DNA of 64,000 bases from NCBI GenBank assembly GCA_964016885.1, contig OZ024742.1:115940001-116004000 (forward strand). Reading direction: 5' to 3'. Positions 2,620 through 62,796 of this stretch are shown piece after piece. Source of the stretch: Eledone cirrhosa. Its lineage: Eukaryota. The position numbers and the translations under genes are program-made. Below the pieces are notes generated by a model that made no database searches, was not told where the DNA came from, and saw only the letters and a list, made by a program, of their open reading frames with translations. Within the stretch, counting starts at the first letter, position 1. Each line of letters begins with the position of its first letter.

Positions 2620-4415
2620 CTATTGGGGTGATAACCCGTTTAGTTTTGGTTTAAATTTGTTAAGGAATACATTTTCTTTGTTTATTCTTTGTTGCTGTGT
2701 GAACGAATCTGAGCACTTGTAGAAGGGGAAGATTTTAAAGTTGGGTAGTGTCATTCCTGCGCAGTTCGCAATATGGCTGCTCAAGGGGATTTTTCTTGTG
2801 TTAGCGTCCCAGATTTGTTGGCGGTGGATGGTCATTCTTTTGCGTAATGAGGTGCCCGACTGTCCTATGTAGTTGTGTTTGCACCCACCGCAAGTTATTG
2901 CGTAAATCAAGTTCTCCGAGTTGCAGGTGAAATTGTTTTTTACTGTAAATGTTTGGCCATCTTTAAATGTAAATGTTTGTCCTTCAGTGAGGTAGAGGCA
3001 CGTTCCACAGTTTGTTCTACCACATTTGGTAACTGTAGGGTTTAGGATTGGTTTGGGTATATTTGGTCCAGTGAGAATGCGTTTTAGTGATTTGGGTTGT
3101 CTTTTACTTTTAAGGATCTTGTGTGTTTCAAGAATAGACTTCATTTTTACATCTTTAAGTAGGATGGGGAGGTTTTTGTGTAGGTGATCAAACATTTCGG
3201 TATTTCTGGGGTTGAAAGTGGATACATATGGCAGGGTGTTGAGTGTGGTTTTCTGTTTTGGATTGTTAAGTTGATGGGGATTTAGGTGTTTTGCCCTGTC
3301 TATTCCATTGTTGATTATTTCAAGTGGAACGGCTCTTAAGATATGGGTGTCTTTTAGTTCCTTTAGTCTTTGCTCCCGTTTAGGTAGATCTGATACTATG
3401 GTACATATACGTTTGGCCAAATTGAATGTTAAGTTTTGTATGTTTTGGGTGACTTGATATGAAAAAGAGGTATTGCTTGGAATCTGTGGGTTTATAGAAT
3501 ATATCTGTATCTAATTTCCCGTCTATTACAGAGATGAGAAAATCCAAGAAGGCTAATTCCTTGGGATTGGATTCCATTGTGAATTGTATGTTATTATATA
3601 TGTTGTTTATCATGTTTTTAAACATAGTAAGTGAGTTCATGTCTTCTTGCCATAGGATAAAGCAGTCGTCTAGATATCTTTTCCAATTGGCTTTGAGGTG
3701 TGTGTGGAAAGAGTCTCCAAATAAGAGAAGGGACTGACTGTATATTTGTTGTTCATGGAATCCCATGACTAGGTTGGCATATGTGGGTGCTATTTTCGTG
3801 CCCATTGCCTTACCTGATACTTGTCTGTATGTTGAACCATTGAATGTGAAGTAGTTATTTTGTAGGATAAAGCGGAGTCCGTCAGTGATAAAATCTTTAT
3901 TGATGCGTGTCGGTATTTCTGATGGGTGTGTGTTAAGCCAGTATTGGACTGATGTTATTCCATAGTTGTGGGGTATGTTTGTGTAGAGGTTTATTACGTC
4001 AAAGGAGACAAGAATTGTATTTGCACTTACTGTTTTAGGGAGGTGTTTCAGCATGTCAAGGTCATCTCGTATGTAGCTCTGTATATGTTGTAGAAAGGGT
4101 TTCAGTAGGATGTTCAGAAAGTTGCTAAGTCTGTGGGTTTCACATGTAGGGCCTGCTATATTTGGCCTGAGTTTTAGGTCTTCTGGTGGTGTTAGTTCAA
4201 TGTAATTGTTGGTTGAGGTGTCACATGCATCGTTTATGGGTTTACATTTGTGGAGTTTCGGTAAGCCGTAAAAAGAGCTTGTATTGCATTTGAAGTGGCT
4301 TATATAGTTAAACTCTTTTGTGGTTAAGCTGTTGCGGTATTTATTCAGTAAGGTCAAAAGGTTACCCATTGTTTTGGTGTGTTTGTAGTTTTCTGTTTTT
4401 TCATAGTATGTGTTG
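2620..4415 (-). mobile_element. 5'-truncated Neptune-like Penelope retroelement, RT + GIY-YIG, one frameshift near 3410
   Basis: ORF 3380-4495: FYGLPKLHK, LVSFDVINLYTNI, GKAMGT, WKRYLDD, FYKPT. ORF 2620-3420: CGRTNCGTC linker, NLIYAITC..C..NYIGQS, KLN. 5' end runs into (TA)n. Confidence 0.92.
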
Positions 4416-4418
4416 ATG

Positions 4419-4453
<35 letters not shown>

Positions 4454-5642
4454 AAATATATATGTATGTGTGTGTGCATGTGTGTGTGTGCGCACGTGTG
4501 TATTTCATTTGATGTGCCGGAAATATATTTTATGAAAATCATTTCCCTTTCATTTATTTTTGTTTTACATTATTTCTTAAATTTTGCTGTTTGTTACTTT
4601 GGTTTAAATTCTTTTTTCTCTATCGCTAGGAACGTTTCGGTGACAATTCACTTTCTCAGTATATTCATTAAAATTATTATCTTACTATACTTCTCACTGC
4701 CAGCGCTGAATCAGTCATAATCCCCATGCTCTCTACTAGGTTGTTACAAGATCCAATTAGCATATTGTTGAGGGGTCTTTTCCATTCTTACTTAAGGCTG
4801 TTTCTATGCTGAATCGATTTCTGTCAAACAGTCGACAATGGCGAGGCTGGGAGGCAAACATTTCCAGTGAGAAATAAGTTCTTCTCTTCTTTATCTACAT
4901 TCATCCTTTCATTGATTAATGCTGTTTGTTATTTCTAATTTCATTTTTTTTTCATTTTCCTTTACTTGTACCGTTTCCGGGATGTTTTTATATTCTTACA
5001 TAGAAGGTTTCTTCAGTCCAGTGTTATTTTCTATCGGATTCTTCACATTCTCAGGACTTATCTTCTGTTATACTGATTAATGTTCGGCTGTGAATGATCA
5101 AATCCTTCCAGGACTTGTTATCAATATATGAATAATATATGTTGTGTCTCTTTGTTACCTACTTGTTTCCTTGTGGATTTAATCTGATTCTGAATCTTTT
5201 CATTGCTACAGCGCAATTTTTTCAGCTCAACCATTTGCAGGGTTGTGCATAAGTAGTCAATTTAATAAAGGATGCTCATATCGGTTGACGTTGTTGTTGT
5301 TGTATATGTATTATGTGTATTATCTTGTTATTCGTCAATGTACTGTCAAAGGTTGACTCACGGGATTTTCCCCACTAAAGCAACACAGGATCTTTCATAA
5401 AGTAATGCCACTTTTGTAATTATTCGTATTTTCCTCTGCAATGATTCATACTAATATATATGTTCATGTGTGTGTATTGAAAAAGGAAAATAAAACAAAA
5501 GTCGATGAAAGGTTCTTAATGGGATAATTGTTTTACAATCGTGTCAGAAGAGTAATTAATCTTGATAAATCGATATCTTAACTGGTAGTGGTTATGTCAC
5601 CACCTGTTTCTAGTATTGATATCCTAGCTCTATTGTTCGATG

Positions 5643-6119: not shown

Positions 6120-6192
<73 letters not shown>

Positions 6193-6480
6193 CAAATAAC
6201 GAAACGAAATTAAATTTCGTTTCCTTTGTAACTCACTTTTGTATGACTGACGCTTAAACAATTAAGTTAAAAATGTACATCCACATATGTATACTGAAAT
6301 ACTAGTATGCATATGAATACACACACGTATACATATGTAGATGTACCAAGTTTTTCACTGGTCACTTTACTGTGAGTGTCCAGCTATTCTGTATGTAAAC
6401 ACACAGACAAATCAGTTTTTAGAGTCATACTGGTTTTTGAGGAAACACCTTTCCTCTATTCTCCAGAAAGCCAGACAAGG

Positions 6481-6525
6481 AATATTGAACTAGTTTCGTT
6501 GTTGTTACAACTCATCAGCAATATT
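6481..6525 (-). ncRNA. Minimal type I HHR, intact core (family C)
   Basis: aatattg-CTGATGA-gttgt aaca acaac-GAAAC TA GTT-caatatt; 7-bp helix I, 5-bp helix II. Confidence 0.92.
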
Positions 6526-7110
6526 TACCTATCTTCCGGCCTTTCTGGAGAATCGTAAAAGCACATATCGTTATATGCTTTTTCTATGAAAATTAGTAGT
6601 GGGCAGACTAATTTGCATAGAGTGTGAGTACGTATCGGTTCAACGGAGACGATAAAAACAAATAACGAAACGAAATTAAATTTCGTTTCGTTTGTAACTC
6701 ACTTTTGTATGACTGACGCTTAAACAATTAAGTTAAAAATGTACATCCACATATGTATACTGAAATACTAGTATGCATATGAATACACACACGTATACAT
6801 ATGTAGATGTACCAAGTTTTTCACTAGTCACTTTACTGTGAGTGTCCAGCTATTCATATGCATACTAGTATTTCAGTATACATATGTGGATGTACATTTT
6901 TAACTTAATTGTTTAAGCGTCAGTCATACAAAAGTGAGTTACAAACGAAACGAAATTTAATTTCGTTTCGTTATTTGTTTTTATCGTCTCCGTAGAACCG
7001 GTACGTACTCACACTCTATGCAAATGAGTCTGCCCACTACTAATTTTCATAGAAAAAGCATATAACGATATGTGCTTTTACGATTCTCCAGAAAGGCCGG
7101 AAGATAGGTA

Positions 7111-7155
7111 AGTATTGCTGATGAGTTGTAACAACAACGAAACTAGTTCAATATT
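7111..7155 (+). ncRNA. Minimal type I HHR, intact core (family C, inverted arm)
   Basis: agtattg-CTGATGA-gttgtaacaacaac-GAAACTAGTT-caatatt. Confidence 0.92.
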
Positions 7156-7370
7156 CCTTGTCTGGCTTGCTGGAGAATAGAGGAAAGGTGTTTCCTCAAA
7201 AACCAGTATGACTCTAAAAACCGGTTTGTCTGTGTGTTTACATACAGAATAGCTGGACACTCACAGTAAAGTGACCAGTGAAAAACTTGGTACATCTACA
7301 TATCTATACGTGTGTGTATTCATATGCATACTAGTATTTCAGTATACATATGCGGATGTACATTTTTAAC

Positions 7371-7438
<68 letters not shown>

Positions 7439-7640
7439 ACGTACATACATATATGTATACAGACGTACAATAGTATGTATATATATATATATATACATAC
7501 ATGCACATATATATATATGTACGTATGGATTCACCGAACATTTATTATAATGCTCGGTGTGTTTTTAAACAAATATCCCGAATTAAGCCGTACTGTGTCT
7601 AGCAACCATCGTTGCTCATTTGTTCAACACTGACAAAGGA

Positions 7641-7683
7641 ACGCTGTACTAGTTTCAAGCATATTAGCTATCGTCAGCAACGT
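7641..7683 (-). ncRNA. Minimal type I HHR (family B, unit 1)
   Basis: acgttg-CTGACGA-t-agc taatat gct-t-GAAAC TA GTA-cagcgt. Confidence 0.88.
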
Positions 7684-8073
7684 ATACCTTCCTACCAGAT
7701 GGTTGAACGTGTGAAAATATTTACTTTCATTATGCATATTAACGGCTGAGCAGCCTAATTTGCATACCGAGTGAGTTAATCGGCAGGGGTACCGAAAACG
7801 ATAAACGGAAAAAATGAAACGAAATTTCATTTCTCACTCTTAGTAAGGCTGTTACTTAAATATAAGTATGTATACGTACATACAAATATGTATACAGATG
7901 TACAGTAGTATGTATATATCTATATATACATACATGCACACATATATATATGTACGTATGGATTCACCGAATATTTATTATAATGCTCGGTGTGTTTGTA
8001 AACAAACATCCCGAATTAAGCCGTACAGTGTCTAGCAACCATTGTTGCTCATTTGTTCTACACTTACACAGGA

Positions 8074-8116
8074 ACGCTGTACTAGTTTCAAGCATATTAG
8101 CGATCGTCAGCAACGT
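8074..8116 (-). ncRNA. Minimal type I HHR (family B, unit 2)
   Basis: Same motif 433 bp from unit 1, one helix II change. Confidence 0.82.
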
Positions 8117-8485
8117 ATACCTTCCTGCCAGATGGTTGAACGTGTGAAAGTATTTACTTTCATTATGCATATTAACGGCAGGAGCAGCCTAATTTGCATA
8201 TCGAGTGAGTTAATCGGTCGGGGTACCGAAAACGATAAACGGAAAACATGAAACGAAATTTCATTTCTCACTCTTAGTACGGCTGTTACTTAAATATAAG
8301 TATGTATACGTACATACATATATGTATACAGACGTACAGTAGTATGTATATATATATATATATGTACGTATGGATTTTCCGAACATTTATTATAATGCGC
8401 GGTGTGTTTGTAAACAAACGTCCCGAAATAAGTCGTAGAGTGTCTAGCAACCACCGTTGCTCATTTGTTCAACACTGACAAAGGA

Positions 8486-8528
8486 ACGCTGTACTAGTTT
8501 CAAGCGTATTAGCTATCGTCAGGAACTT
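8486..8528 (-). ncRNA. Minimal type I HHR (family B, unit 3)
   Basis: CTGACGA...GAAACTAGTA core intact, helix I weakened. Confidence 0.75.
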
Positions 8529-8650
8529 ATACCTTCCTGCCAGATGATTTTCGCTACCCAGACCGATTTCTCACTCGATATGCAAATTAGGCTGCTCAGC
8601 ATAATGAAAGTAAATGCTTTCACACGTTCAACCATCTGGCAGGAACGTAT

Positions 8651-8693
8651 ACATTGTTGATGATAGCTAATAAGTTTGAAACTAGTACAGCGT
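8651..8693 (+). ncRNA. HHR (family B inverted arm), C3 to U variant
   Basis: acattg-TTGATGA-tagctaataagttt-GAAACTAGTA-cagcgt. Confidence 0.7.
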
Positions 8694-8979
8694 TCATTTG
8701 TCAGTGTTGAACAAATGAGCAACAATGGTTGCTAGACACTGTAGGGCTTAATTCGGGATGTTTGTTTACAAATACACCGAGCATTATAATAAATGTTCGG
8801 TGAATCCATACGTACATCTATATATATATGTGTGCATGTATGTATATATATATATATATATATACATACTACTGTAAGTCTGTATACATATATGTATTTA
8901 CGTATACATACTTATATTTAAGTAACAGCCGTACTAAGAGTGAGAAATGAAATTTCGTTTCATTTTTTCTGTTTATATA

Positions 8980-10333: not shown

Positions 10334-10930
10334 ATATATAAATATAAATTAGCGAGAATCGTATTTCGGCTATTGGAATTTAGCGAAAAACAACTTCCGA
10401 ATGTGTAGCAAGCGCTCAATAGATTCTAACGAACCAGAACTACAACATACTGTAAAAGGCCAAACACACTGAGACGATTGGTAAACCATTATCCGCTCAG
10501 CCATATTAACGACCAAGTAATTCGGGTCAAACAAATAAAAAAATATAATCGAATAATTTACACGGACCCCTGGATGGTTGTTGAAAATCCAGCATTTGGG
10601 TTTCTGCGACTCCTAAATCAAGTACTGTCGGCTTAGACAAATAATGCTAAGCTTTTGGTAAGATGATTGAACAAGGTCTCACCAGGTTTTAGTTCAAGTG
10701 CCAGGCCAAGGATTGACCGTTACCAATACCCATGTGGGGCTCGGCAAGGGAGGCAACACTTTTTTTGGCGGATGAAATTCAGTATGTGTAACATTGCAAA
10801 ATTGCAAAATATCACAGAACGAATTAAGTTCTCAACAGAATGTATATATATGTATATATAGATTTATATAAATATATATATATATATATATATAATATAA
10901 GATAAAAACATGGTTAAAAGAGTTCCATGT

Positions 10931-10999
10931 ATTTTATTATGCGCATTTCAAAAACAAATATCATCATGAGATGACATTTGCGTTTTCGTCAGATAAAAT
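10931..10999 (-). ncRNA. Type I HHR with palindromic GCGC loop III
   Basis: attttat-CTGACGA-long helix II-GAAAT GCGC ATA-ataaaat. Confidence 0.9.
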
Positions 11000-11127
11000 G
11001 GGGATACATGATATGAAGGTTAAAAAACACTTGTGAATAGTGAAGTTTTAAATCAACATATTTAAAACGTGTTGATTTAAAACTTCACTATTCACAAGTG
11101 TTTTTTAACCTTCATATCATGTATCCC

Positions 11128-11198
11128 TATTTTATCTGACGAAAACGCAAATGTCATCTCATGATGATATTTGTTTTTGAAATGCGCATAATAAAATA
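11128..11198 (+). ncRNA. Type I HHR with palindromic GCGC loop III
   Basis: tattttat-CTGACGA-aaacgcaaatgtcatc tcat gatgatatttgttttt-GAAAT GCGC ATA-ataaaata. Confidence 0.9.
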
Positions 11199-11341
11199 TA
11201 TTGAACTCTTTTTACCATTTTTTGATCTTATATTATTTATACTCCAGTCCTACACACTGTAGAATGCTACTTATCCGATATCTGCATTGCCTTATTGTAC
11301 TACAATAAAACTCACCTCCTACATTATATATATATACATAA

Positions 11342-12257: not shown

Positions 12258-12263
<6 letters not shown>

Positions 12264-12856
12264 GGAAAAAATGAAACTAATTTTTTTTTCTCACTCTTAT
12301 TACGGCTGTTACTTAACTATAAGTATGCATACGTATATACATATATGTATACAGACGTACAGTAGTATGTATATATATACATACATGCACACATATATAT
12401 ATGTCTGTATGGATCTACCGAGCACTTATTGTAATGCTCGGTTTGTTTGTAAATAAACATCCCGTATTAAGCCTTACAGTGTTTAGCAACCATCGTTGCC
12501 CTTTTGTTTAACACTGACAATGGGACGATGTATTTGTTTCAAGCTTATTAGCTATCGTCAGCACCGTATATCTTCCTGCCAAATGATTGAACGTCTGAAA
12601 GTATATACTTTCCCTATGCATATTAACGACTGGTATGCATATTAGGCTGCTCAGCCGTTAATATGCATAAGGAAAGTATATACTTTCAGATGTTCAATCA
12701 TCTGGCAGGAAGGTATACAGTGCTGACGATAGCTAATAAGCTTGAAACTAGTACATCGTTCCTTTGTCAGTGTTGAACAAAAGGGCAACGATGGTTGCTA
12801 AACACTGTACGGCTTAATTTGGGATGTTTGTTTACATGTTCGTATACATACTTATA
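12258..12856. mobile_element. Family B fold-back copy; HHRs at ~12525-12566 (minus, degenerate) and 12717-12759 (plus, intact core)
   Basis: Inversion at ~12635; gtg-CTGACGA-tagctaataagctt-GAAACTAGTA-cat. Confidence 0.85.
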
Positions 12857-13941
12857 TAAATATATATATATATATTTCCATTAGTTGAATACTTTTCACG
12901 ATCTCATTCGCATCTTTACCATTAATTCAATGTATATTTATTCGATTAGGTATCCCCCTGCCTCCTTGGAATTCATTCGCTATATACTATACGATATTGT
13001 CTTCATATAGTGAAGGCATGGTTTGAATGTAAGTGTCTTGCTTATGTGGATTACATCCAATATGAATCTGACCGGGGTGGTGAGGACCCTTCTAGCAGCG
13101 CTTGGGGCGCCTTCAGTGCTTGAAAGTAAATTAGATTTCCCTTTACTCCAGTATACCGTAATACTCTGAACGTTCGGTGGGCTTTTGGGCGCTTTGAGTA
13201 TTGGGGTGTCGCCATTTTCAGTTGTTGTTGTTAACCGCCGTACCATACCACTTATACTCTATAGTGCGTACTCCATAGGAATATAAAATTGAACTACTAG
13301 AGGATCCCAGAGCGGATAGTGGCTTCGCTTAGATTAACTAACATTATGTTATTTGTTTATTTGGTTTACACAACTCTATAATTAAATTCATTACCGTAAC
13401 TGGTCTTTCTAATTGGTAATTGGCTAGCATACAATACTTCACCGGCCAACTGTAAGGACTCTACTTATTTAATTAAATGCAAACAATTTTAAACATTCAG
13501 TTTTAATTTTCGATTCTTAAAATTAACCCTAACTTTAACTTCTAAACAATTTTAACCTGTAATTTCTTTTAAGCTCTGAATTTTCTCTACTTGGTGTGTT
13601 CCTAAATTCGCCCCGGCTGTTGTATACTTTCAGTGAGTATATAGACCTTTAGTAACACGATATTCTTCACCCCTTCCACTTTTCCGGCCGAAGGTTGTTC
13701 AAATTGAGAGGTAGTTGTGATTCTCCCAATAAGCTATACATCGCTCTACCCGCTTAGGGTAGTATCTGTTGAAGATAATTCATTCAGAGACGTCGGAGCA
13801 TTATAACAACATGCTTCTTCGATAGACTCTGGGTCAAAAACATAAGCACACATTTTCTCTTCTCCGTTCTTTGCTTGGTTCCTTAAATCTTTTAGAATGT
13901 GTTTACCATGATTCCGTTGGTATACATCTTTTACGCAATTT

Positions 13942-29680: not shown

Positions 29681-29793
29681 AAACACGCACACACACAACA
29701 AACATACATAACGGTACATACACACATACATCTATACAATTATATATATATAGATATTATTATTATGTAATAAACAACATAAGGCAATTATTC

Positions 29794-29847
29794 CATTTAC
29801 CAGTGGTTTCTTAAAAGCAAAAGGTTTTGCTTTCAATCCTCAGAATG
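29794..29847 (-). ncRNA. Type I HHR, intact core
   Basis: catt-CTGAGGA-ttgaaagcaaaa cc ttttgcttttaa-GAAACC ACT GGTA-aatg. Confidence 0.9.
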
Positions 29848-29863
29848 AAAAACCAGGATTTTT

Positions 29864-29918
29864 CATTCTGACGATTGAAAGCAAAACCTTTTTGCTTTTA
29901 AGAAACCACTGGTAAATG
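29864..29918 (+). ncRNA. Type I HHR, intact core
   Basis: catt-CTGACGA-ttgaaagcaaaa cct ttttgcttttaa-GAAACC ACT GGTA-aatg. Confidence 0.9.
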
Positions 29919-30034
29919 GAATAATTGCCTTATGTTGTTTATTACATAATAATAATAATTAAGCTCTGTTGCATACATAGAGCACTCTTTTTTCCTGCAC
30001 GTTTCCGATGGAATTACTTCATTCATACATATAT

Positions 30035-31707: not shown

Positions 31708-31756
<49 letters not shown>

Positions 31757-31791
31757 GGTGTTAAAGTTTGCTTGAAGCATTGTGAAATGTG

Positions 31792-32105
31792 TAAGAATAC
31801 GTATTTAAGAAAGCCACAACAATGCAAAGGGAAATCTCGAGGTAGGAAGTGAAATATAGATAGGAAAAACAGGTGAAAGTGAAAATTGAGAGAGACAAAG
31901 ATGAAAACAAAACAAAGGTAGAAGGGTTACCGTAGTAGAGATTTAATCCCGGGATTAAATCTCTACTACGGTAACCCTTCTACCTTTGTTTTGTTTTCAT
32001 CTTTGTCTCTCTCAATTTTCACTTTCACCTGTTTTTCCTATCTATATTTCACTTCCTACCTCGAGATTTCCCTTTGCATTGTTGTGGCTTTCTTAAATAC
32101 GTATT

Positions 32106-32109
<4 letters not shown>
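31792..32109. repeat. Perfect 318-bp palindrome, 159-bp arms, no spacer
   Basis: Centre atttaatccc|gggattaaat at 31950/31951; no mismatch seen between arms. Confidence 0.95.
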
Positions 32110-32178
<69 letters not shown>

Positions 32179-35406: not shown

Positions 35407-35568
35407 CCTACATGAAAATAACCACTACCACAGTCACCAACATTCCCCTAAAGAGGAAACTTCTTCCTCTTTTTTAGCCATTATGAATCTGGCAAAAGAA
35501 CTGGAAATAAACATTCGAGCTATCACCCAGCACCATCGTCCAATATCACCCCACTGCACAAACTCCCA

Positions 35569-38500
35569 TTGCTGCCATTAACAAACAAACAAATTAACAA
35601 CACACCAAAACAATTAAAACCATCCACTCTCGCCTCAACATGTTTGCTTAACGGCCAAGGCATCAACCCTTCCACCAATACTCAAAAATGGAAGATCAAA
35701 TTCCTGGAGGACATGGTTGATGTCCATCCAAACCACATCCCTTTCTTCGTCCTCACTGAAACCCATCTCAGTAACCTCCACTTGGAAGCCGCGGTGAAAG
35801 TGAAAAATTTCAAAGCCATCCGTGCTGATCGCGCTGGCAGAAGAAAGGGTGGGACTGCCATTTATGTCCATAATTCTTTCTCAACAGAGGCTATGAACAT
35901 ATTTTCTAATGGATACTGCGAAGCAGTCACTGTATTCAGTCAAACCAACAACCTAATAGTAATTGGGCTCTATAGGCCACCCCAAAAGCCTCTACCATGA
36001 TTCAAGGAATGCCTCAACAGCATAAAGTATTTCATCCAAGAGTGTCACCCTGACAACATCTTAATGATGGGGGACTTCAACCTCCCCGGAGTTGACTGGT
36101 CCACAAACAGCCTGCCACCAGGTTCTTCTGCCTCAACCTCTAACAGGGAAGCAGTGGAATCGCTTCTTGACTTCATGGATGATTTCTTCCTGTCCAAACT
36201 GGTGCTCGAACCAACGAGGTGCCACAAAAACGTCCTAGACTTAAATTTCAGCAATCACACTGACACTATCCACAATATTGCAGTAGAGAAAACTACTCCC
36301 TGATCATGACATGGTTCTCTATGATCTGAGATTCCACCATCCAATATACAAACCCAATGTCATCTCTCCTGTCCATCCGTTTGACACTATGGATTTCCAT
36401 AATGCAAACTGGGAAGTGATCAGTCATGATCTTGCACATGTCGACTGGTCCTTCACGCACACTGACACACCCACTAACATCAAAATGTCCTGGAAGACAT
36501 TTGTGGACACTGTTACAAACATATGTGCAAAACACAACCCATTAAGAACTATAAACAAATCTAAGAACAGAATCCCTAGAAATAGAAAAACGCTCATCAG
36601 GAAAATTAAGAGAACTAACAAAAAATCAACAAGCTGAAATACTGTCAGCAGCAACACACCAACTTGACTGCCATTTCATCACTAGAGATTAAAACACATA
36701 ACCTCCAAAAGAATATGATGTCTATCATCAACAATCAAATAAGAGCTGAAGAGGCCTGGGCCATTGAGAAGATCAAACTCAATCCCAAAGTCTTATTTTC
36801 ATTTGCAAAAAAACACAAAATCACTGGCTCTACTGTTGGCCTACTAATTGATGAAAATGGCACTCCTCAAGACAATGCTAAAACCATGGGTGAGATACTG
36901 CAGAAACAATACTGCTCTGTTTTCAGCAATCCTGATATGGCCTATCTGGGCTGTATCGGCTATGTTACTCCCCATTACACCTTATCGGACACAACGTTTG
37001 GCGCCCCTGATGTCTTAGCGGCAATAAAGGAAATCAAGCATAATTCAGGAGTAGGTCCCGATAGGTTCCCTGCTTGTGTCTTGAAGGCGTGTCAACACCA
37101 ACTTGCATCTCCTCTTGCCAATCCGTGGCGGAACTCACTAGATGCTGGATATGTGCCAGAAAACCTTCTATCCCAGTCTGTTGTCCCAGTTTTCAAAAAA
37201 GGAAACAAATCCCTTGCCGCGAATTACCGTCCAATCACACTCACCTTTCATATCGTTAAGGTATTTGAGAGAGTGGTGAGATCGCGAATGGCTCACTTCC
37301 TTGAGAGTAACAATATGCTGAACTCCAACCAGCATGGATTCCGTAATGGAAGGGATTGCCTGACGCAGCTACTTCATCACTCTGATGACATTTTGAGAGC
37401 CTTGGGAGAGGGTTCCTTCACTGATGTTATCTACCTTGATTTCAGCAAGGCCTTTGATAGGGTTGATCACAACATTCTACTGAGAAAGCTGTCCAATATT
37501 GGTGTCACTGGAAAGCTGCTGCAGTGGATCAAGTGCTTCCTGTCAAACAGAACCCAACATGTTGTAGTCGAAGGAGTCAGATCCAGCCCAGCCAAAGTCA
37601 TTAGTGGGGTCCCACAAAGCACTGAGTTGGGCCCACTTTTCTTCATCATCTATATTAATGACATCACTGACATCATCAAACACAGCAACATTAGAATTTA
37701 CGCTGATGATTCCAAGCTCCAGAAGGTCATCAATGGCATGGATGACCGGATAAGCCTTCAGTCAGACCCAATGGGCGGAAAAGAACAACATCGTACTGAA
37801 CGAAGACAAATTCCAAATGACCCACTTTGGAAAAGAGGATGCTCTGAAACTCCCGTACCCCTTCCCTCCGGTGAAACTCTCGTGACATCTAACAACATCA
37901 GAGACTTCGGAGTAACTGTGGACAGCAACATAAGCTGGGCCACGCATATAAGCAGCAAATTTGACATGGCCCGCAGAATGTGTTCCTGGATCCTCAAAAC
38001 CTTCCAGTCGAGAGATTCCCACACCATTATCCTTCTCTTCTCCACTTTTGCTCGACCACATCTTGAATACTGTTGTCCAATGTGGTCTCCCCATACGAAA
38101 CAAAGTATCATAAAACTTGAAGCTCCCCAAAGGGCAATCACCAAAAAGATAGATGGCATGTCAGACTTTGACTACTGGGGTCGACTAGAAAAGCTGAAAC
38201 TTTACTCGCTCCAACGTCGCCGTGAGCGTTATATTATCTGCATTATGTGGAAAATGTTTCATCAGCACTCTCCAAATGATGTTGGCATCACCTTCAAAAT
38301 ACACCTAAGGCTTGGGCCCCGTGCTATCCGTCCCAAACAAAAATCTAATTCACTACTCATAACAACAATACGGCACAATTATTTCACCTCAATTGGCCCT
38401 GCTCTCTTCAACATCACACCAGGACACGTCAAAACAGAAACTGACCACACAAAATTCAAGATGTCTTTGGACAAATTCCGCCAAGTAATCCCGGACAAAC

Positions 38501-38571
38501 CACCCACACCCGGATATGTCTCCGCAAACAGTAATTCCCTTCTCGAATGGGCCATGGTGCCCAAATCCTGA
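35569..38571 (+). pseudogene. LINE ORF2: apurinic-like endonuclease + reverse transcriptase, with stops and frameshifts
   Basis: LTETHL, RADR..RKGGTAIYV, LYRPP, MGDFNLP, LDL..S; NYRPITL, QHGFR, YLDFSKAFDRV, SGVPQS, YADD, RPHLEYC. Confidence 0.93.

Positions 38572-40059: not shown

Positions 40060-40063
<4 letters not shown>
39872..40063 (+). mobile_element. Family A element with HHR at 39910-39946
   Basis: gaac-CTGAAGA-ttgggaaagcat-GAAAGTACTT-gttc. Confidence 0.8.
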
Positions 40064-40158
<95 letters not shown>

Positions 40159-40162
40159 ATAT

Positions 40163-43100
40163 TTATACTTGGGGAGGGCCATATGTGTGTAATATTGCCA
40201 GAATAAATAACAGAACCCACCAAACTGTTTGGTTGGTTTTCGCTTCTGTTTCTTTTATATCGGTAATCTAATTTATTCGGTCCACAATGTTGCCATTGAC
40301 TGACCAACGGTCACAAATCATACAGATACAATATAGACGAAAACACATATATATAGTTTATCAAAGTTCTTTCGTTGCACATCTTCAACATCGTCAGTGG
40401 TGCTATAGATTACTCCCGTCGCATTGTATTTCTACGCCATCTTTATTTAGTTGTGTTTATATATTTATTTATTTATTTGTTTGTTTGTTTATTTTATTTT
40501 GTCTTCTTTGCGCATGCGTTTGCGTGTGTGTATAGTGTTTTGTTTGATGTGTGTTCGTGATTGGGTGACTGTGTATTGGTTAATGTATTCTATATGTTTA
40601 CTAGTGTGTGTTTATATGTTTGTTGTTATTGTGCTTGTGTATGTATTTATTTATTTATTTATCTATTTATTTATTTATTTATTTATACCTCTCTTAGGTC
40701 AGTGTTGTTTGTTTGGGTGTTGTTGTTATTCCATTCATTCTTTCTGTTTAGTCTTAGCCTTCTAAGTTCTATTTCACTGGCCTCTCTGATTTGCCTATCT
40801 GCTGGGTCATTTCTATGTTTAGATATTATTCTAATTTCCATGTTGTCTATGTTACCGTCGTGTTGTTGTCTGGCATGTTCGTATAGTACTGACACGTTTT
40901 TTCATCCTTTTAGTTCCCCCCAGTGTTGGTCTATCCTTTCACCTATGCTACGAGCTGTCTCGCCTATGTATGTTGTTGTATTGTTTCTGCAACTACCCTC
41001 TGTACATCTTATGCTATAGACTACGTTTCTAGTTTACAGTTTATCCGGGGGTTTACCTTACATATGATACATTTCCTATAAGTACAGTGGGTTTTCTTAA
41101 AAGGGTAGGTTTTGCTGATCAGGGATTTTATGGTGGTTCCTGGCTTTTCTACCACCTTAATCTTTAAGTGGGTCTTTCTCGGGGCCTTTCTCCACTGGTT
41201 AGCTAATTTCCCTCCAGGGGTAGCATCCACAAACATGACACTCAGATATCTCCGGTTGTCGTACCATGAGGTGGCTTTCCCTATCTTATGTCTAGCCCTA
41301 TCTAAGCTATTCCAGGATTTGCTCCTGATTAATGGGAACATTCCTTTCTAGTCCAGTTCTATGAGGGTCTCATACTTCTCCATGGCTCCTTCGTAAACTC
41401 TGACTATGTCTCTTTGGTTGTTGTCATAGGACTGCATGTGGTTGCTGAAGTGTTAGATGTGTCTTTCCATTTCTGTTGGGTCGCACATGCGGGATACGTT
41501 CTTCATCACTCGTACCAAATCTGCGATCAGAATATTAAACTTAGCACTACTGGACACTGCTGAGTTTTTGAGCATCAGGTATTTGGAGGCCATGGGTTTA
41601 GCATAGTGTGAGTGGAGAATTTGGACTCTCTCATCTATAGTGTTAATCCAGAGTTCCGTGTCTTATACAGGTAGTCTATTGTTAGGGTCTTTGGAAGGGT
41701 AGTCGATAGTTACAGTTATACACTGGTGTATGGAATTAGCTATCTGCTGGATGCTTTCCATTGTGCTACGTTCTAAATCAAACTTGTTAGTGCTCTCTAC
41801 TGGGGATGTTCTTATAACTATATTGATATCGTCTACGTAACGAGAGTACATGATGAGGTCTATGGAGCTCTCATTAAGGAGATCTTTAAGTCTCCTTTCC
41901 CACCATGCCATAAAAAGGTTGGCAACATCACCAGCTATGCTGACGTCAATGGCTGCTCCCTCATTTTGGGTGTAGATCTTCTCGTTGAACTTGAATATGT
42001 GGCCCTTTAGGCTAGTTTTGATACTAGCCCCTATTGCATGTGCGACCATTTTTCTTACCTGATCATTGTTTTGGCGGGTCCGTATAGCTTTGGTCCACCC
42101 AATCCACCTTCCCATGGGCGTCTTGTTTGCATGGAGGTTATGGTGGGGGTGTACCTCGTATGGGTCTACTAGGGCAGAAACTTCTAAGGTCATGGCTCTC
42201 TAGGTAGTCAGTCTCGTATTTAAGTCTAAGTAGGAGCCCCAGTTCGTCTGTGTCGACGTCGCAGAACTCCACTTCACTCCCAATGATCATCTCCACACAT
42301 TTTTCCACAGCAAAATCAATGTTAATGGATGGGTACAGTGATACCACATCCATGCTGCCTATTATGCAGTTGGATAGGTTCCTGTTTTTGTTGTACTCAC
42401 TGATTCTGCTGAGGAGGTCCTCTGTACTGTCACATACATCTGGGGACATCTTGATTATGGGGCGTATAACCACTGAGAGGAAGTAGGAGATCCTGTAGTT
42501 GCTAGCTATATTAGCTCCGCAAATGGGTCTTGTTGGTGGTCTTGTTGTCGGGTCGTCGACTGTCTTGTGGTCTTTGCGGAGCCCATACAGGATGGTATGC
42601 CATATGTTAGACGCCTGGAAGTTGTTGGCAGTGCGTCTGCTTGGCTTTAGGATGTCAGTCCACATCATCATGTGAGCGTTGATGATTTTCTCTCTCCCAT
42701 CGTGTGTTTGTTGTGCAATTTCGCTCCTGTTGGTGATGTGGGGTTGCATTAACTTGATGTAGTTCGGCATGCTATCTACTGACATCCTACCCGACTTATC
42801 CGTGGGTAGACATACTACCTCACCATCCCTTGTGCGCTGCTTGAGGCTAACCAAGCCTTCTATAGGTTTCCTCCCAAGTTGTTGGGCCTCTGGTTTGCTC
42901 TGTCTCTTAGTATACCGGTCTACTATTTGTTAATCTTATTTCTAGCTATGGTGAACTGTGACTCTGTCTCGTCATCTATTTGTTGTGGTATGCAAACTAT
43001 TTTATTAAAGGGTAACCTCGTAGGATAGTTATTACCCATCTTATATGTTTTGTCAGCTGGGTTGAAAAATAGTTTCTCTAGGGGGTTGTCATTATATCTA

Positions 43101-43860
43101 TCGTCATAGTTGCGTGTGTTGCTATTATTGTTATTATGGTGGTTGTTGTTGTTCCTATCATTAGCATTATTATTATTGTTATGATTGCTAGATGTATTGT
43201 TGCTGTTGTGATTGTTGTTTACATCACCGTTATTGTTGTTGTTACTGTTATTTCTACCATTATGGTTGTTACTTTTATTATGTTTCTTGTTTTTGTTGTG
43301 CCTATCATTAATGTTGCTACATGTATTTTTCCATTATTACCACTGTGGTTGTTGTTTTTGTTGTTCGTATTGTTACCGTTATTACTACTGTGGTCGCTGC
43401 TGCTGTGTCTGTGGTTAATGTTTCTATTATTATTATTATTGTGGTTGTCGTTGTTGTTCTGTCTCTCGTTAGTATTATTACCATTATTACTATTTCTCAC
43501 TCTCCTGCTATTGTTATTGTTATGGTTGTTATTCCTATACTCGGAGTTATTGTTTATATTACTACTACCGTTATTATTGTTGTTGTTGTAGTTTACTTTT
43601 GCATTCCAACGTATTTTTGTCAAACACTCTTCCAGCTCCGTTTTGCAATCAATAGGTTTAATATTTTTATAGATGGCAAATTTTGGTGGTAGCTGCAGGA
43701 TTTGTTGTTCTTGTTCACCGATTAAAGTGTTCCCATAAATATTTACTGTGTGGTCATTGGCAAATTCTTCCGGTAGTTTTACATCAGTCATACGGATATT
43801 GTTGATGTTATCTTGGTATTTTTGAGAATATTCTATTTTCCTTTCTTGTAGTTGTTTATC
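40163..43860 (-). mobile_element. PLE family E, left arm: N-terminal region with poly-Asn tract, RT, GIY-YIG, pLTR with HHR at 40360-40401; frameshifted
   Basis: LPPKFAI, PTDKSG, IIGSMDVVSLYPSI, YSRYVDD, EASEI...LNRKNEW. Confidence 0.92.
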
Positions 43861-46266
43861 CTATTTCCACTCGATAGTTATATGCCCCATAATCAAGATG
43901 TCCCCAGATGTATGTGACAGTACAGTGGACCTCCTCAGCAGAATCAGTGAGTGCAACAAAAACAGGAACCTATCCAACTGCATAATAGGCAGCATGGATG
44001 TGGTATCACTGTACCCATCCATTAACATTGATTTTGCTGTGGAAAAATGTGTGGAGATGATCATTGGGAGTGAAGTGGAGTTCTGCGACGTCGACACAGA
44101 CGAACTGGGCCTCCTACTTAGACTTACTTACGACACTGACTACCTAGAGAGCCATGACCTTAGACGTTTCTGCCCTAGTAGACCCATAAGAGGTAGACCC
44201 TCCACCATAACCTCCATGGCAAAAAAGACTCCCATGGGAAGATGGATTGGGTGGACCAAAGCTATACGGACCTGCCAAAACAATGATCAGGTAAGAAAAA
44301 TGGTCGCACATGCAATAGGGGCTAGTATCAAAACTAGCCTAAAGGGCCACATATTCAAGTTCAACGAGAAGATCTACACCCAAAATGAGGGAGCAGCCAT
44401 TGGCGTCAGCATAGCTGGTGATGTTGCCAACCTTTTTATTGTAAGGTGGGAAAGGAGACTTAACGATCTCCTTAATGAGAGCTCCATAGACCACATCATG
44501 TACTCTCGTTACGTAGATACGTAGACGATATCAATATAGTTATAAGAATATCCCCAGTAGAGAGCACTAACAGGTTTGATTTAGAACGTAGCACAATGGA
44601 AAGCATCCAGCAGATAGCTAATTCCATACACCAGTGTATAACTGTGACTATCGACTACCCTTCCAAATACCCTAACAATAGACTACCTGTATTAGACACG
44701 GAACTCTGGATTAACACTATAGACGAGAGAGCCCGAATTCTCCACTCACACTATGCTAAACCCATGGCCTCCAAATACCTGATACTCAAAAACTCAGCAA
44801 TGTCCAGTAGTGCTAAGTTTAATATTCTGATCGCAGATTTGGTACGAGTGATGAAGAACGTATCCTACATGTCCGACCCAACAGAAATGGAAAGCCACAT
44901 CCAACACTTCAGCAACCGCATGCAGTTCTCTGGCTACAACCAAAGAGAAAGAGCCAGAGTTTACGAAGGAGCCATGGAGAAGTATAAGACCCTCATAGAA
45001 CTGGACATGAAAGGAATTTGCCCATTATACAGGACCAAATCCTGGAATAGCTTAGATAGGGCTAGACATAAGATAGGGAAAGCCACCTCATGGTACGACA
45101 ACCGGAGATACCTGAGTGTCATGTTTGTGGATGCTACCCCTGGAGGGAAATTAGCTAACCAGTGGAGAAAGGCCCTGAGAAAGACCCACTTAAAGATTAA
45201 GGTGGTAGAAAAGCCAGGAACCACCATAAAAACCCTGATCAGCAAAACCTACCCTTTTAAGAAACCCACTGTACTAATAGGAAATGTATCATATGTAAGG
45301 TAAACCCCCGGATAAACTGTAAAACTAGAAACGTAGTCTATAGCATAAGATGTACAGAGGGTACTTGCAGAAACATGAAAACAACATACATAGGCGAGAC
45401 AGCTCGTAGCATAGGTGAAAGGATAGACCAACACTGGGGGGAACTAAAAGGAGGAAAAAACGGGTCAGTACTATACGTACATGCCAGACAACAACACGAC
45501 GGTAACATAGACAACATGGAACTTAGAATAATATCTAAACATAGAAATGATAGGCAAATCAGAGAGGCCAGTGAAATAGAACTTAGAAGGTTAATACTAA
45601 ACAGAAAGAATGAATGGAATAACAACAACACCCAAACAAACAACACTGACCTAAGAGAAGTATAAATAAATAAATAAATAGATAAATAAATAAATTGATA
45701 AATAAATAAATAAATAAATACATACACAAGCACAATAACAACAAACACATATAAACACACACTAGTAAACATAGAATACATTAACCAATACACAGTCACC
45801 CAATCACGAACACACATCAAACAAAACACTATACACACACGCAAACTCATGCGCAAAGAAGACAAAATAAAATAAACAAACAAACAAATAAATAAATAAA
45901 TAGATAAACAGACTAAATAAAGATGGCGTAGAAATACAATGCAACGGGAGGAATCTATAGCACCACTGACGATGTTGCAGATGTGCAACGAAAGAATTTT
46001 GATAAACTATATATATGTGTTTGTGTCTATATTGTATCTGTATGATTTTTGACCGTCGGTCAGTCAATGGCAACATTGAGGACCGAATAAATTAGATTAC
46101 CGATATAAAAGACACAGAAGCGTAAAGCGAAAACCAACAAAACAGTGAGTGTGTTCTGCTATTAATTCTGGCAATATTACACAAATATGACCATACCCAA
46201 GTATAACAATATTTGTTTCGACACACGATTTCATATAAAAAACCTCGCAAAACTAATTCATCGCCG
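43861..46266 (+). mobile_element. PLE family E, right arm (inverted, more 5'-truncated) with pLTR HHR at 45962-46003
   Basis: ORFs 43898-44524, 44596-45303, 45375-45665 (YIGETARS..ER..H); reverse complement of 40163-42490. Confidence 0.93.
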
Positions 46267-46338
<72 letters not shown>

Positions 46339-48006: not shown

Positions 48007-50088
48007 TTAATTGTAAGTTGTGATGTTGCTGTTCCACTCATATTTTCTATTTAATTTTGGTTGTAATTCTTTTATGTTTATTGCCTCTGTAATTTGTCTA
48101 AACATTGTGTCTTTTCTGTGTGTAGATTCTATTTTTATTTCTATGTTCTCTAATTTACCCTTGTGTTCTATTTTAGCATGTTGGTAGAGTACAGATGATT
48201 CTTTACTATCTTGAAGGTCTCGCCAGTGTTCATTTATCCGTTCCCCTACACTACGAGCTGTCTCACCTATGTACACTATATTTTTGTCTCTACATTGTCC
48301 TTCAGTACATCTTATGCTATACACTACATTTGTAGTTTTACAGTTAATATGGGGGCTTATTTTACAGGTTATACATTTCTTATCTATACATGAGGGTCTT
48401 TGAAAAGGGTATGTCTTGCTAATAAGTGTTTTTACGGAGGTACCTGGTCTTTCTACTATCTTAATATTGAGTTTATGTTTATTTAGGGCCATTCTAAATT
48501 TGTAAGCTAATTCACCTCTAGGGGTTGTATCGATGAACATTACACTCTGGTATTTATTGCTATCATACCATGAGTTTATTCTATTAGCCTTGTTCCTAGT
48601 TAGTTCTATTGTATTCCAAAATGTGCTCCTATACAAGTGGCAGGTCCCATTTATGTCATTATTTACAATTTTTTCCCATTTGGTTCTGGCTCCTCTATAC
48701 ACTCTGATTTTATCTCTCTCATTGTAGCCAGAGAACTGCATACGGTGGATGAAGTGTTGTATGTGTCTCTCTAGTTCTTCGGGGTTGCACATGCGGGACA
48801 CATTTCTCATCACCCGTACCAAATCCGCAATCAGTATGTTGATTTTGGTATGGTCCGAAACGGCCGAGTTTCGGTGGATCAGATGTTTGGAAGTCATGGG
48901 TTTGGCATAATGGGAATGGAGGATTTGTTTTTTGTTGTTAATGGTATCTAACCAGAGCTCTGTGTCTAGTACAGGTAATCGATGGTTGGGGTGTTTACTT
49001 GGGTAGTCTATAGTAAATCTAATGCTCTGGTGGATGGAGTTTGCTATTTGCTGGATGCTTTCCATTGTGTTTTTCTCTAGTTCCTGACTGTTCTCTAGTG
49101 GGGGTGTCTTAACTACGATGTTTATATCATCTACGTAGCGGGAGTACATTATCAGGGTTAAGGGGTCTTCTGATTGTTCTTTAAGTTTATGTTTAAGTCT
49201 ACTGTCCCACCATACCATGAATAAGTTAACTATGTCGCCTGCAATGCTAACACCAATGGCTGCTCCATTCTCTTGGGCATATGTTTTTCCATTAAATTTG
49301 AACATATGTTCCTTAAGGGTTAGTTTTATGCTGGCCCCTACCGCATGTGCAATCATTTTCTTCAGTTCATCGTGGTTTTCGGGTGTCCGTATGGCTCTGG
49401 TCCACCCGTTCCATCTATCCGTGTGGGTTTTCTTGGCCATTGAGGTAATGGTAGGTGGTTTGCCTCTTGCTGGTCTTGTAGGGCACAGGTTGCTAAGGCC
49501 ATATGTGTCTAGGTAATTATTACTATAGGTAAGCTTAAATAGGAGTCCCAGCTCACTGGTATCAATCCCACGGAACTCAACCTTGCTCTCACTGATCATT
49601 TCTACGCATTTCTCCACAGCAAAATTCACGTCAATAGATGGATACAGGGACACAACATCCATACTGCCTATTATGCAGTTTGTTAGGTCCCTAGATCGGT
49701 TACTCACGCCGATTCTGCTGAGGAGGTCCTCCGTGCTGTCACATACATCTGGGGACATTTCAATGATGGGGCGTATGATCAGGGAGAGGAAGTAGGACAG
49801 TCTGTAGTTACTAGCAATGTTAGCTCCACAGACTGGCCGTGTTGGTGGTCCCGCGACAGTGTCACTGCCCGTGTTATGGTCTTTTCGAAGCACAAACAAC
49901 GCCGGCACGTCATTGTTCCAGGCCTGGAAGTTGTTGGCAGTCCTTTTGTTGGGCTGCATTATATTCGTCCACATCACCATATGGGCATTGAGGGCTTTTT
50001 CTCTATCCTCATGCTCCTGTGGTGTTACCTCTCTTGTGTTAGTGATGTGTGCGTTGCATTGCCTGGATTTAGTTTGGCAGGCTATCAA
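48007..50088 (-). CDS. Penelope-like RT + Cys linker + GIY-YIG endonuclease, 693 aa uninterrupted, N-terminally truncated
   Basis: RKDH, TRPVCGA, IIGSMDVVSLYPSID, GAAIG, YSRYVDD, HYAKPM, CIDKKCITC, NVVYSIRC, YIGETARS.GER..EH, EAINI..LQPKLN. Confidence 0.95.
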   Translation of the reverse strand: MIACQTKSRQCNAHITNTREVTPQEHEDREKALNAHMVMWTNIMQPNKRTANNFQAWNNDVPALFVLRKDHNTGSDTVAGPPTRPVCGANIASNYRLSYFLSLIIRPIIEMSPDVCDSTEDLLSRIGVSNRSRDLTNCIIGSMDVVSLYPSIDVNFAVEKCVEMISESKVEFRGIDTSELGLLFKLTYSNNYLDTYGLSNLCPTRPARGKPPTITSMAKKTHTDRWNGWTRAIRTPENHDELKKMIAHAVGASIKLTLKEHMFKFNGKTYAQENGAAIGVSIAGDIVNLFMVWWDSRLKHKLKEQSEDPLTLIMYSRYVDDINIVVKTPPLENSQELEKNTMESIQQIANSIHQSIRFTIDYPSKHPNHRLPVLDTELWLDTINNKKQILHSHYAKPMTSKHLIHRNSAVSDHTKINILIADLVRVMRNVSRMCNPEELERHIQHFIHRMQFSGYNERDKIRVYRGARTKWEKIVNNDINGTCHLYRSTFWNTIELTRNKANRINSWYDSNKYQSVMFIDTTPRGELAYKFRMALNKHKLNIKIVERPGTSVKTLISKTYPFQRPSCIDKKCITCKISPHINCKTTNVVYSIRCTEGQCRDKNIVYIGETARSVGERINEHWRDLQDSKESSVLYQHAKIEHKGKLENIEIKIESTHRKDTMFRQITEAINIKELQPKLNRKYEWNSNITTYN

Positions 50089-53738: not shown

Positions 53739-53744
<6 letters not shown>

Positions 53745-54149
53745 GGAAAAAATGAAACGGAATTTCGTATCTCACACTTAGTTTTCGGTGCGCCCGGCCG
53801 ATTAACTCACTCAATATGCAAATTAGGGTGCTCAGCCGTTAATATGCATAAGGAAAGTATATACTTTCAGACGTTCAATCATCTGGCAGGAAGGTATACG
53901 GTGCTGCCGATAGCTAATAAACTTGAAACTAGTACATCGTTCCTTTGTCAGTGTTGAACAAAGGGGCAACGATGGTTGCTAAACACTGTACGGCTTAATT
54001 CGGGATGTTTGTTTACAAACTAACCGAGCATTATAATAAATGTTTGGTGAATCCATACGTACATATATATATATGTGTGCATGTATGTATATATATATAT
54101 ACATACTACTGTACGTATGTATACATATATGTATGTACGTATACATACT

Positions 54150-54150
<1 letters not shown>
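53739..54150. mobile_element. Family B copy (plus) with short inverted left arm; HHR variant at 53898-53940
   Basis: gtg-CTGCCGA-tagctaataaactt-GAAACTAGTA-cat; ATGCAAAT at 53816. Confidence 0.82.
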
Positions 54151-54183
<33 letters not shown>

Positions 54184-62685: not shown

Positions 62686-62687
62686 GA

Positions 62688-62796
<109 letters not shown>

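What the first reader, a model, noticed from the sequence alone, without database searches (positions are those of the whole stretch)
6600..8600. Conserved ATGCAAAT octamer box upstream of the ribozyme in both retrozyme-like families
Seen: TATGCAAATTAG(G/T)CTGC(T/C)C-like block at 6611, 7018, 7758, 8192, 8580 and 53816, about 75-90 nt 5' of the HHR on the ribozyme strand; it is the best conserved block between B and C. Established: ATGCAAAT is the POU/Oct element of snRNA-type promoters, and HHR-containing newt satellite 2 uses an snRNA-type promoter with an octamer (from recall). Inference: each unit carries its own promoter.
Basis: partly seen in the sequence, partly recalled or inferred. 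Interest (0 to 1): 0.72.

Follow-up and report, generated by a model that had tools for sequence, protein, structure and literature searches.

The report
Paired octamer boxes in octopus retrozymes
Two related, high-copy, ribozyme-carrying jumping elements of an octopus-like genome keep a classic transcription-factor box (the POU octamer), paired with an inverted second copy, just ahead of their ribozyme; it may be their built-in promoter, but this is untested and the snRNA-type promoter first proposed is not supported.

Summary
In detail: all six octamers lie at the stated places, 77-100 nt 5' of a type I hammerhead core. They are not independent. B (466-nt unit) and C (433-nt unit) are homologous (59% identity) non-coding retrozyme-type units, and 4 of 4 insertions show Penelope-like (PLE) marks. 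TATGCAAATTAG is the longest B/C block (12 nt), only just ahead of the 3' tail (11); such a run is not significant alone (P 0.27-0.48). For a sequence-read site: the 5' arm stays fixed while the hammerhead stems covary and the 3' arm varies, and an unrelated hammerhead contig (L006) has four such 12-mers in other arrangements. Against: the whole unit folds into hairpins, both arms are conserved within C, other hammerhead families here lack the box, no PSE was found, and no RNA data exist. Best reading: a paired POU site acting as internal Pol II promoter or enhancer (0.5); structural stem 0.27; neutral ancestry 0.13; snRNA-type promoter 0.10.

The parts
6186..7376 (.). Family B insertion: two head-to-head arms (inversion point about 6851-6855), unit 466 nt, both outward 3' ends in (TA)n, tail complete only at the left end
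7432..8976 (.). Family C insertion 1: about 2.7 tandem units on - (period 433) and one unit on + from 8548; both ends in (TA)n, tail only at the right end
12258..12860 (.). Family C insertion 2, head-to-head, inverted at the octamer hairpin (about 12632); tail only at the left end
53739..54157 (.). Family C insertion 3: inverted tail fragment (53739-53782) plus a unit on + from 53781 that lacks the tail
6608..6619 (-). TATGCAAATTAG, octamer at 6611-6618, 5' arm of the inverted repeat (B)
6585..6596 (+). Second, inverted octamer-like site ATGAAAAT = 3' arm (B)
7017..7028 (+). TATGCAAATGAG, octamer at 7018-7025 (B)
7040..7051 (-). Second, inverted octamer-like site ATGAAAAT = 3' arm (B)
7755..7766 (-). 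TATGCAAATTAG, octamer at 7758-7765 (C); its inverted partner ATGCATAT is at 7732-7739
8189..8200 (-). TATGCAAATTAG, octamer at 8192-8199 (C); its inverted partner ATGCATAT is at 8165-8172
8579..8590 (+). TATGCAAATTAG, octamer at 8580-8587 (C); 11-nt deletion in the 3' arm
12634..12645 (+).
53815..53826 (+). TATGCAAATTAG, octamer at 53816-53823 (C)
6465..6536 (-). Type I hammerhead (B): Rfam HH9 37.7 bits, E 6e-6, below the gathering score of 52; GUU triplet
7100..7171 (+). Type I hammerhead (B): HH9 35.9 bits, E 2e-5
7640..7692 (-). Type I hammerhead (C): core at 7677, 6-bp stem I, short stem II, palindromic AC-UA-GU stem III, GUA triplet; found by pattern and pairing
8073..8125 (-). Type I hammerhead (C): core at 8110; no Rfam match in 7950-8290
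8235..8290 (-). 3' tail of C (hairpin containing AATTTCGTTTC, ending TTTA before (TA)n or the next unit); shared with B

Best explanation
B and C are sister families of non-autonomous, hammerhead-bearing retroelements (non-LTR retrozymes) that are moved by Penelope-like elements. SHOWN: homology, the anatomy of the insertions, high copy number, and an octamer 33-35 nt inside the unit's 5' junction paired with an inverted one-mismatch octamer about 25 nt downstream. INFERRED: this pair is a DNA binding site for a host POU-domain factor and is the core of an RNA polymerase II promoter or enhancer that travels inside every unit, as Penelope's promoter does in its pLTR. Transcription starts near the junction or is read on from the upstream tandem unit. 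The RNA, either uncleaved or cut hammerhead-to-hammerhead and circularised, is copied by a PLE reverse transcriptase from two sites that bound the tail and inserted into (TA)n. Selection acts only on the master copies that must be transcribed, which keeps the 5' octamer fixed while the second site drifts among POU-like variants.
For: (1) Between B and C the 5' arm is identical at 12 of 12 positions and the octamer stem shows no compensatory change, only one mismatch at a different place in each family. Hammerhead stems I and II and the next hairpin change sequence while staying paired. (2) A diverged C subfamily in runs X5 and X7 carries the B-type 3' arm (8168 C>A plus 8170 T>A). By matching depths I assign all 18 differences of X5 record 13 (8067-8201) to shown rows, none in 8182-8201; none of the 40 shown variant rows falls in 8182-8217. 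(3) L006, 1 of 20 metagenome hits to an octamer-plus-hammerhead pattern, has a PLE-type minimal hammerhead and four TATGCAAATTAG-like 12-mers (3 exact, 1 with one mismatch; 0.01 expected; 0 of 200 shuffles). The pattern asked for one 8-mer only. They stand once tail-to-tail and once head-to-head, and L006 shares no other block over 10 nt with B or C, so the word is kept while the geometry is not. (4) P that a pre-named 8-mer stays intact at this divergence is 0.015-0.03. (5) ATGCAAAT is the canonical OCT1/2 site (PMC10812921), and Penelope's promoter lies within its pLTR (PMC2377424). (6) No tRNA, no B box, and T4+ runs just behind the box make Pol III unlikely.
Against: No expression, start-site or binding data. 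The whole C monomer folds into local hairpins (z -5.4), so a stem here is unremarkable. Within the C copies of the window the 3' arm is at least as invariant as the octamer (variable columns 0 of 11 and 1 of 12, against 62 of 226; Fisher p 0.033 and 0.13, both arms 0.008; copies not independent). The longest-block claim is not significant alone, and any conserved AT-rich block may resemble some factor's site. Of 25 core-pattern matches, none of the 16 outside B and C has an exact octamer within 200 nt upstream. One C copy has ATGCATAT. Loose ends show a variant at position 11 of the 12-mer (4,958 reads), one contig of depth 6 with the octamer broken, and a weak consensus with ATGTAAAT. 53 of 93 variant rows were not shown, and run X11 is cut at AATT, inside the box. 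L006 is a single contig from an unknown animal, and its four copies could stem from local duplication.
Confidence: 0.5

Rival explanations
1. The block is an RNA (or cDNA) stem-loop recognised by the PLE protein or another RNA-binding factor, or needed for a compact circular RNA. Its likeness to the octamer is incidental.
For: It is one arm of an 11-14 bp stem in both families. Both arms are under-variable in C. One inversion junction and one deletion map to this stem, so it forms during copying. The 3' tail hairpin, a likely RT signal, is conserved in sequence almost as well (11 nt). The monomer is built of hairpins.
Against: No compensatory change in this stem between B, C and the diverged C subfamily, unlike the neighbouring stems. 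The same 12-mer recurs in L006 with different spacing and orientation.
Confidence: 0.27
2. Neutral shared ancestry: B and C are homologous, and this block simply has not mutated, perhaps helped by arm-to-arm correction within an inverted repeat.
For: A run of 12 or more has P 0.27-0.48 at this identity. The window-wide octamer count is at chance level. The 12635 copy looks corrected to a perfect palindrome.
Against: The conserved block is a pre-named factor site (P 0.015-0.03). Four copies lie before an unrelated hammerhead in L006. Arm-to-arm correction should remove the mismatch that both families keep.
Confidence: 0.13
3. A true snRNA-type promoter (octamer DSE plus a SNAPc-bound PSE) as in newt satellite 2, starting transcription about 200 nt downstream of the octamer.
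For: Newt satellite 2, also a tandem hammerhead unit, is cited as having an snRNA promoter (PMC2220036 passage; that it holds an octamer is recalled, the original was not held). PSEs differ between animal groups (recalled), so a vertebrate consensus can miss one.
Against: No PSE-like match above shuffles; outside the hammerhead no conserved B/C block stands out where a PSE should be (18-column identity 6-12 from +138 to +233). By snRNA spacing the PSE would fall on or just behind the ribozyme. An inverted octamer pair is not among the DSE features in the passages read.
Confidence: 0.1

Closest known systems
Metazoan non-LTR retrozymes (Cervera & de la Pena 2020, PMC7229834; Li, Clavereau & Pollet 2026, bioRxiv 10.64898/2026.07.22.740005)
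   Same: Non-coding tandem unit of a few hundred nt, low GC, canonical type I hammerhead with a short palindromic helix III, self-paired monomer, co-existence with PLEs.
   Different: Units of 433 and 466 nt are at or above the 150-450 range. Cephalopods are not mentioned in the first paper (0 hits for 'cephalop') and are not among the 35 genomes of the second. No promoter element is described in the text I read. circRNA and cleavage were not tested here.
Penelope-like elements and their pLTR promoter (Schostak 2008, PMC2377424; Craig 2021, PMC8557442; Frangieh 2024, PMC11167929)
   Same: Partial tandems, an inverted 5'-truncated copy, a tail at one end only, (TA)n targets, a hammerhead in the repeat, regulatory sequence carried in the repeat.
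   Different: No ORF; the tail is about 55-70 nt rather than 30-40; the autonomous partner was not identified. Penelope's promoter is described as Inr/DPE-type, with no octamer in the passages read.
Newt satellite 2 (Coats, Zhang & Epstein 1994; seen only as a citation in PMC2220036, details recalled)
   Same: Tandem hammerhead unit with an internal Pol II promoter; an octamer is recalled as part of it.
   Different: No PSE found here; the octamer is 108-131 nt before the cleavage site and is paired with an inverted second site.
POU-factor sites: octamer, MORE, PORE (PMC10812921)
   Same: Exact ATGCAAAT; the second site of C (ATGCATAT) resembles a MORE half (recalled).
   Different: The arrangement (inverted, about 25 nt apart) is not PORE as given in that paper and is not a compact dimer site. 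Binding is untested.

Membership tests
Non-LTR retrozyme | Type I hammerhead in each unit | tested here: met
   Core and stems in B and C; Rfam HH9 match for B below the gathering score; no Rfam match for C; core damaged in 2 of 7 C copies
Non-LTR retrozyme | Short non-coding unit in head-to-tail tandem | tested here: met
   Period 433, 2.6 copies; B partial tandem, period 466; only stop-to-stop frames of 93 and 107 aa overlap C
Non-LTR retrozyme | High copy number | tested here: met
Non-LTR retrozyme | Self-cleavage and abundant circular RNA | not testable with these tools
   No RNA holder listed; no assay possible
PLE-mobilised non-autonomous element | Inverted truncated copy, tail at one end only, microsatellite target | tested here: met
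   4 of 4 insertions, compared with PMC8557442 and PMC11167929 passages
PLE-mobilised non-autonomous element | Terminal sequence shared with an autonomous PLE | tested here: inconclusive
   No match between B/C and the ends of the PLE ORFs in this window; genome not held
snRNA-type promoter | Octamer-containing DSE | tested here: inconclusive
   Octamer present, but its position relative to a start site is unknown
snRNA-type promoter | PSE about 100-210 nt downstream of the octamer | tested here: inconclusive
   Recalled vertebrate consensus: best 10 of 15 (B) and 9 of 15 (C), no better than shuffles; no outstanding B/C block there. The host's PSE is unknown, so this leans negative.
snRNA-type promoter | SNAPc and Oct dependence; start site 40-70 nt behind the PSE | not testable with these tools
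   Needs 5' end mapping and reporter assays
tRNA-derived SINE / Pol III unit | tRNA head or A/B boxes, no internal T runs | tested here: not met
   0 tRNAs; no B box, several T4+ runs

The most novel reading that the evidence does not exclude
Clusters of inverted POU octamers about 85-100 nt ahead of the hammerhead are a recurring promoter module of animal Penelope-like elements and retrozymes (octopus B and C, the unrelated pLTR-like contig L006, and by recall newt satellite 2). It would explain how these ORF-less elements are transcribed so strongly, and would mean that thousands of copies have spread POU sites through cephalopod genomes.
Probability: 0.3. Interest if true: 0.7.

Novelty: new variant of a known kind. 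Interest (0 to 1): 0.45.

Why it matters
How animal retrozymes are transcribed is barely addressed: the parts of the two main papers that I read describe no promoter element. A defined 12-nt box that can be mutated with and without loss of pairing makes the question directly testable. If it is a POU site, a very abundant cephalopod repeat is also a distributor of POU sites. If it is a structural stem, it is a candidate recognition signal for the PLE protein. The element class itself is known.

Tried and rejected
No whole genome is held, so host snRNA promoters, copy numbers and the autonomous partner could not be examined. No RNA holder listed; this says nothing on expression. Rfam scan: the miRNA-family hits are low-complexity or palindrome artefacts; C and L006 hammerheads were not detected by Rfam. 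Pattern scans: metagenome 20 hits, of which by eye only L006 and L005 look like real hammerheads; L005 has a single octamer and may be chance. Viral 7 hits and genome 56 hits: 1 of 63 (L057) passed the crude stem filter and none is convincing. Viral palindrome scan: 1 hit (L021), a terminator-like hairpin in phage DNA with no hammerhead noted. Two more viral scans were empty. PLE proteins against viral contigs: no relatives. A B+C profile found no third family in the window; the one-mismatch 12-mer at 59747 has no partner arm. The record behind L006 is not held. I first read the 26,000 loose ends at 8255-8257 in run X11 as an element end and rejected that: they and the read ends at 8014, 8191 and 8260 all sit on AATT, so they look like restriction cuts and ligation chimeras. 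Core distances are 3 nt short for four copies (the pattern matched early); one search is used. Earlier-findings look-ups by place, sequence and octamer words returned nothing. Literature searches that found no report of an octamer in PLEs or retrozymes, or of cephalopod retrozymes: (20 of 196 papers listed, none with ATGCAAAT). Searches gave nothing usable on mollusc snRNA promoters. Subscription papers and the preprint's supplements were not visible and may hold cephalopod or promoter data.

Full report
Setting. The window is AT-rich animal DNA full of (TA)n microsatellites. It holds broken Penelope-like ORFs: GIY-YIG at 2623-3510 and RT at 3383-4504 by Pfam, and a 705-aa frame at 48010-50124 with a weak RT match. 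The best protein hit of that frame is from Octopus vulgaris (67% identity), so the host is probably an octopod. No whole genome is held.

Observation. The octamer starts 100 nt (B) or 77-89 nt (C) before the CUGA core. Seven octamers in the window is chance level (mean 6.43); the signal is that 6 of 7 sit at one place in one repeat lineage. TATGCAAATTAG is the longest exact B/C block (12 nt), followed by the tail block (11), a TA-rich block (10) and the hammerhead's GAAACTAGT (9). B and C align end to end at 59% identity, and at 59-65% identity a run of 12 arises with P 0.27-0.48, whereas a pre-named 8-mer survives with P 0.015-0.03.

What the units are. B (466 nt) and C (433 nt) share one plan: junction TTTA|TCG, an ACTCAC box, the octamer 33-35 nt inside the junction, a second hairpin, a type I hammerhead, a hairpin-rich body and a 3' tail. 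The hammerheads have a 6-7 bp stem I, a short stem II and a palindromic AC-UA-GU stem III, with GUU (B) or GUA (C) triplets. Rfam scores B at 36-38 bits against a gathering score of 52 and does not find C. In 4 of 4 insertions two arms lie head to head, both outward 3' ends run into (TA)n, and the 55-70-nt tail is complete at one end only. These are the marks described for PLE insertions (PMC8557442 passages; PMC11167929 passages). C is abundant: 64,711 of 12,467,656 reads of run X11 and 8,920 contigs of X1 were laid on one unit, with 53 and 8 contigs from runs X5 and X7 of two other organisms. The C monomer folds into a row of local hairpins (z -5.4). This fits non-LTR retrozymes (PMC7229834 passages), which a 2026 preprint ties to PLE pLTRs (parts 1-3 of 5 read; supplements not visible). 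In 2 of 3 C insertions the + copy begins within about 3 nt of the junction. That points either to an RNA 5' end there or to a reverse-transcription stop after one round of a circular or tandem template; the data cannot separate the two.

The octamer is the 5' arm of an inverted repeat in both families. Read on the other strand, the 3' arm is a second octamer with one mismatch: ATGAAAAT in B, ATGCATAT in C. The box can therefore be read as a pair of POU sites or as an RNA stem.

For a sequence-read site. (a) The octamer stem has no compensatory change between B and C: the 5' arm is identical and the single mismatch moves with changes in the 3' arm, whereas hammerhead stems I and II and the next hairpin change letters and stay paired. 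(b) A diverged C subfamily has the B-type 3' arm (8168 C>A, 8170 T>A; a major share in X5 and X7, rare in X1 and X11). By matching depths I assign all 18 differences of X5 record 13 to shown rows, none in 8182-8201; this is an inference from the table. None of the 40 shown variant rows lies in 8182-8217. (c) A metagenome scan for octamer plus hammerhead gave 20 hits, most of them chance. One, L006, has a hammerhead of the PLE minimal type (long stem II with an unpaired 5' base, short stem I; compare PMC4209133, parts 1-2 of 4 read) and four TATGCAAATTAG-like 12-mers within 130 nt, against 0.01 expected. They form one tail-to-tail and one head-to-head pair, and L006 shares no other block over 10 nt with B or C. 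The same word in other geometries is what a cluster of factor sites looks like. ATGCAAAT is the canonical OCT1/2 site (PMC10812921 passages); that the flanks T..TAG match POU-factor consensus motifs is recalled and comes from no call.

Against. Within the seven C rows (five cover the octamer), variable columns are 1 of 12 in the 5' block, 0 of 11 in the 3' arm and 62 of 226 elsewhere, CpG excluded. The octamer alone is not significant (p 0.13); both arms together are (p 0.008), which suits a stem as well as a site pair, and the copies are not independent. An inversion and a deletion map to this stem. None of the 16 core-pattern matches outside B and C (of 25; several are probably not ribozymes) has an exact octamer within 200 nt upstream. 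Loose ends show a change at position 11 of the 12-mer in 4,958 reads, one low-depth contig with the octamer broken, and a weak ATGTAAAT consensus; 53 of 93 variant rows were hidden, and X11 is cut at AATT inside the box. L006 is one contig. There are no RNA or binding data.

The snRNA model. Newt satellite 2 is cited as using an snRNA promoter (PMC2220036 passage); the original was not held, and its octamer is recalled. snRNA promoters place the octamer at -250 to -170 and the PSE at -70 to -40 (PMC9652321 passages), so a PSE should lie 100-210 nt behind the box, on or just after the ribozyme. A recalled PSE consensus scores no better than shuffles, and B/C identity from +138 to +233 is only 6-12 of 18 columns. 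The host's PSE is unknown, so the model is disfavoured, not excluded. A promoter inside the repeat, as shown for Penelope (PMC2377424 passages), fits the position 33-35 nt inside the junction better. Pol III is unlikely.

Verdict. Real feature, ordinary element class, and a promoter hypothesis that is reasonable but unproven: paired POU site as internal Pol II promoter or enhancer 0.5, structural stem 0.27, neutral ancestry 0.13, snRNA-type promoter 0.10. My searches found no paper describing an octamer in PLEs or retrozymes, or cephalopod retrozymes; the library lacks most subscription papers. PMC6155905, PMC13652810 and PMC5054213 were read as passages and added nothing on this point. Earlier AI notes on other genomes describe PLE-type tandem units carrying tRNA or Pol III modules; these are unchecked leads and not support. 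Interest 0.45.

Noticed in passing
L006:486-611 and 680-724: Four TATGCAAATTAG-like 12-mers in two inverted pairs ahead of a PLE-type minimal hammerhead, in a metagenome contig that is probably animal DNA.
   Followed up: partly
window 10887-11241, 29755-29957, 62352-62690: Three further palindromic insertions, each with a hammerhead-like core in its arms; different families from B and C, with no exact octamer upstream.
   Followed up: partly
window 31262, 61633, 52665, 25651(-), 50492(-): Other hammerhead-like cores; 25651 and 50492 belong to one repeat, and 50492 lies next to the PLE ORF at 48007-50124.
   Followed up: no
window 2620-4504, 40063-46326, 48007-50124: Broken or inverted Penelope-like ORFs; 40063-42488 and 43859-46326 form a large inverted pair, about 70% identical to 48020-50131.
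   Followed up: partly
window 35452-38571 (+): Broken non-LTR (LINE-type) element with an endonuclease-like region and RT (Pfam RVT_1, E 6e-21).
   Followed up: no
window 7106-7113 (+): AG-GTAAGT, a perfect 5' splice-site word, just before the B hammerhead core (GTAAAT in the other B copy, GTATAC in C); Penelope has an intron in this part of its pLTR.
   Followed up: no
window 53739-54157: The inverted tail fragment (44 nt) and the tail-less unit (377 nt) together cover almost exactly one monomer, as two cDNAs primed on one circular or unit-length RNA would.
   Followed up: partly
window 8052 (loose ends): 10,210 reads of X11 and 2 contigs of X5 share the hammerhead and the region 5' of it but differ beyond 8052: a further subfamily with another body.
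   Followed up: no
window 31711-32169: Long near-perfect palindrome; the source of the top, spurious miRNA-family Rfam hits.
   Followed up: no
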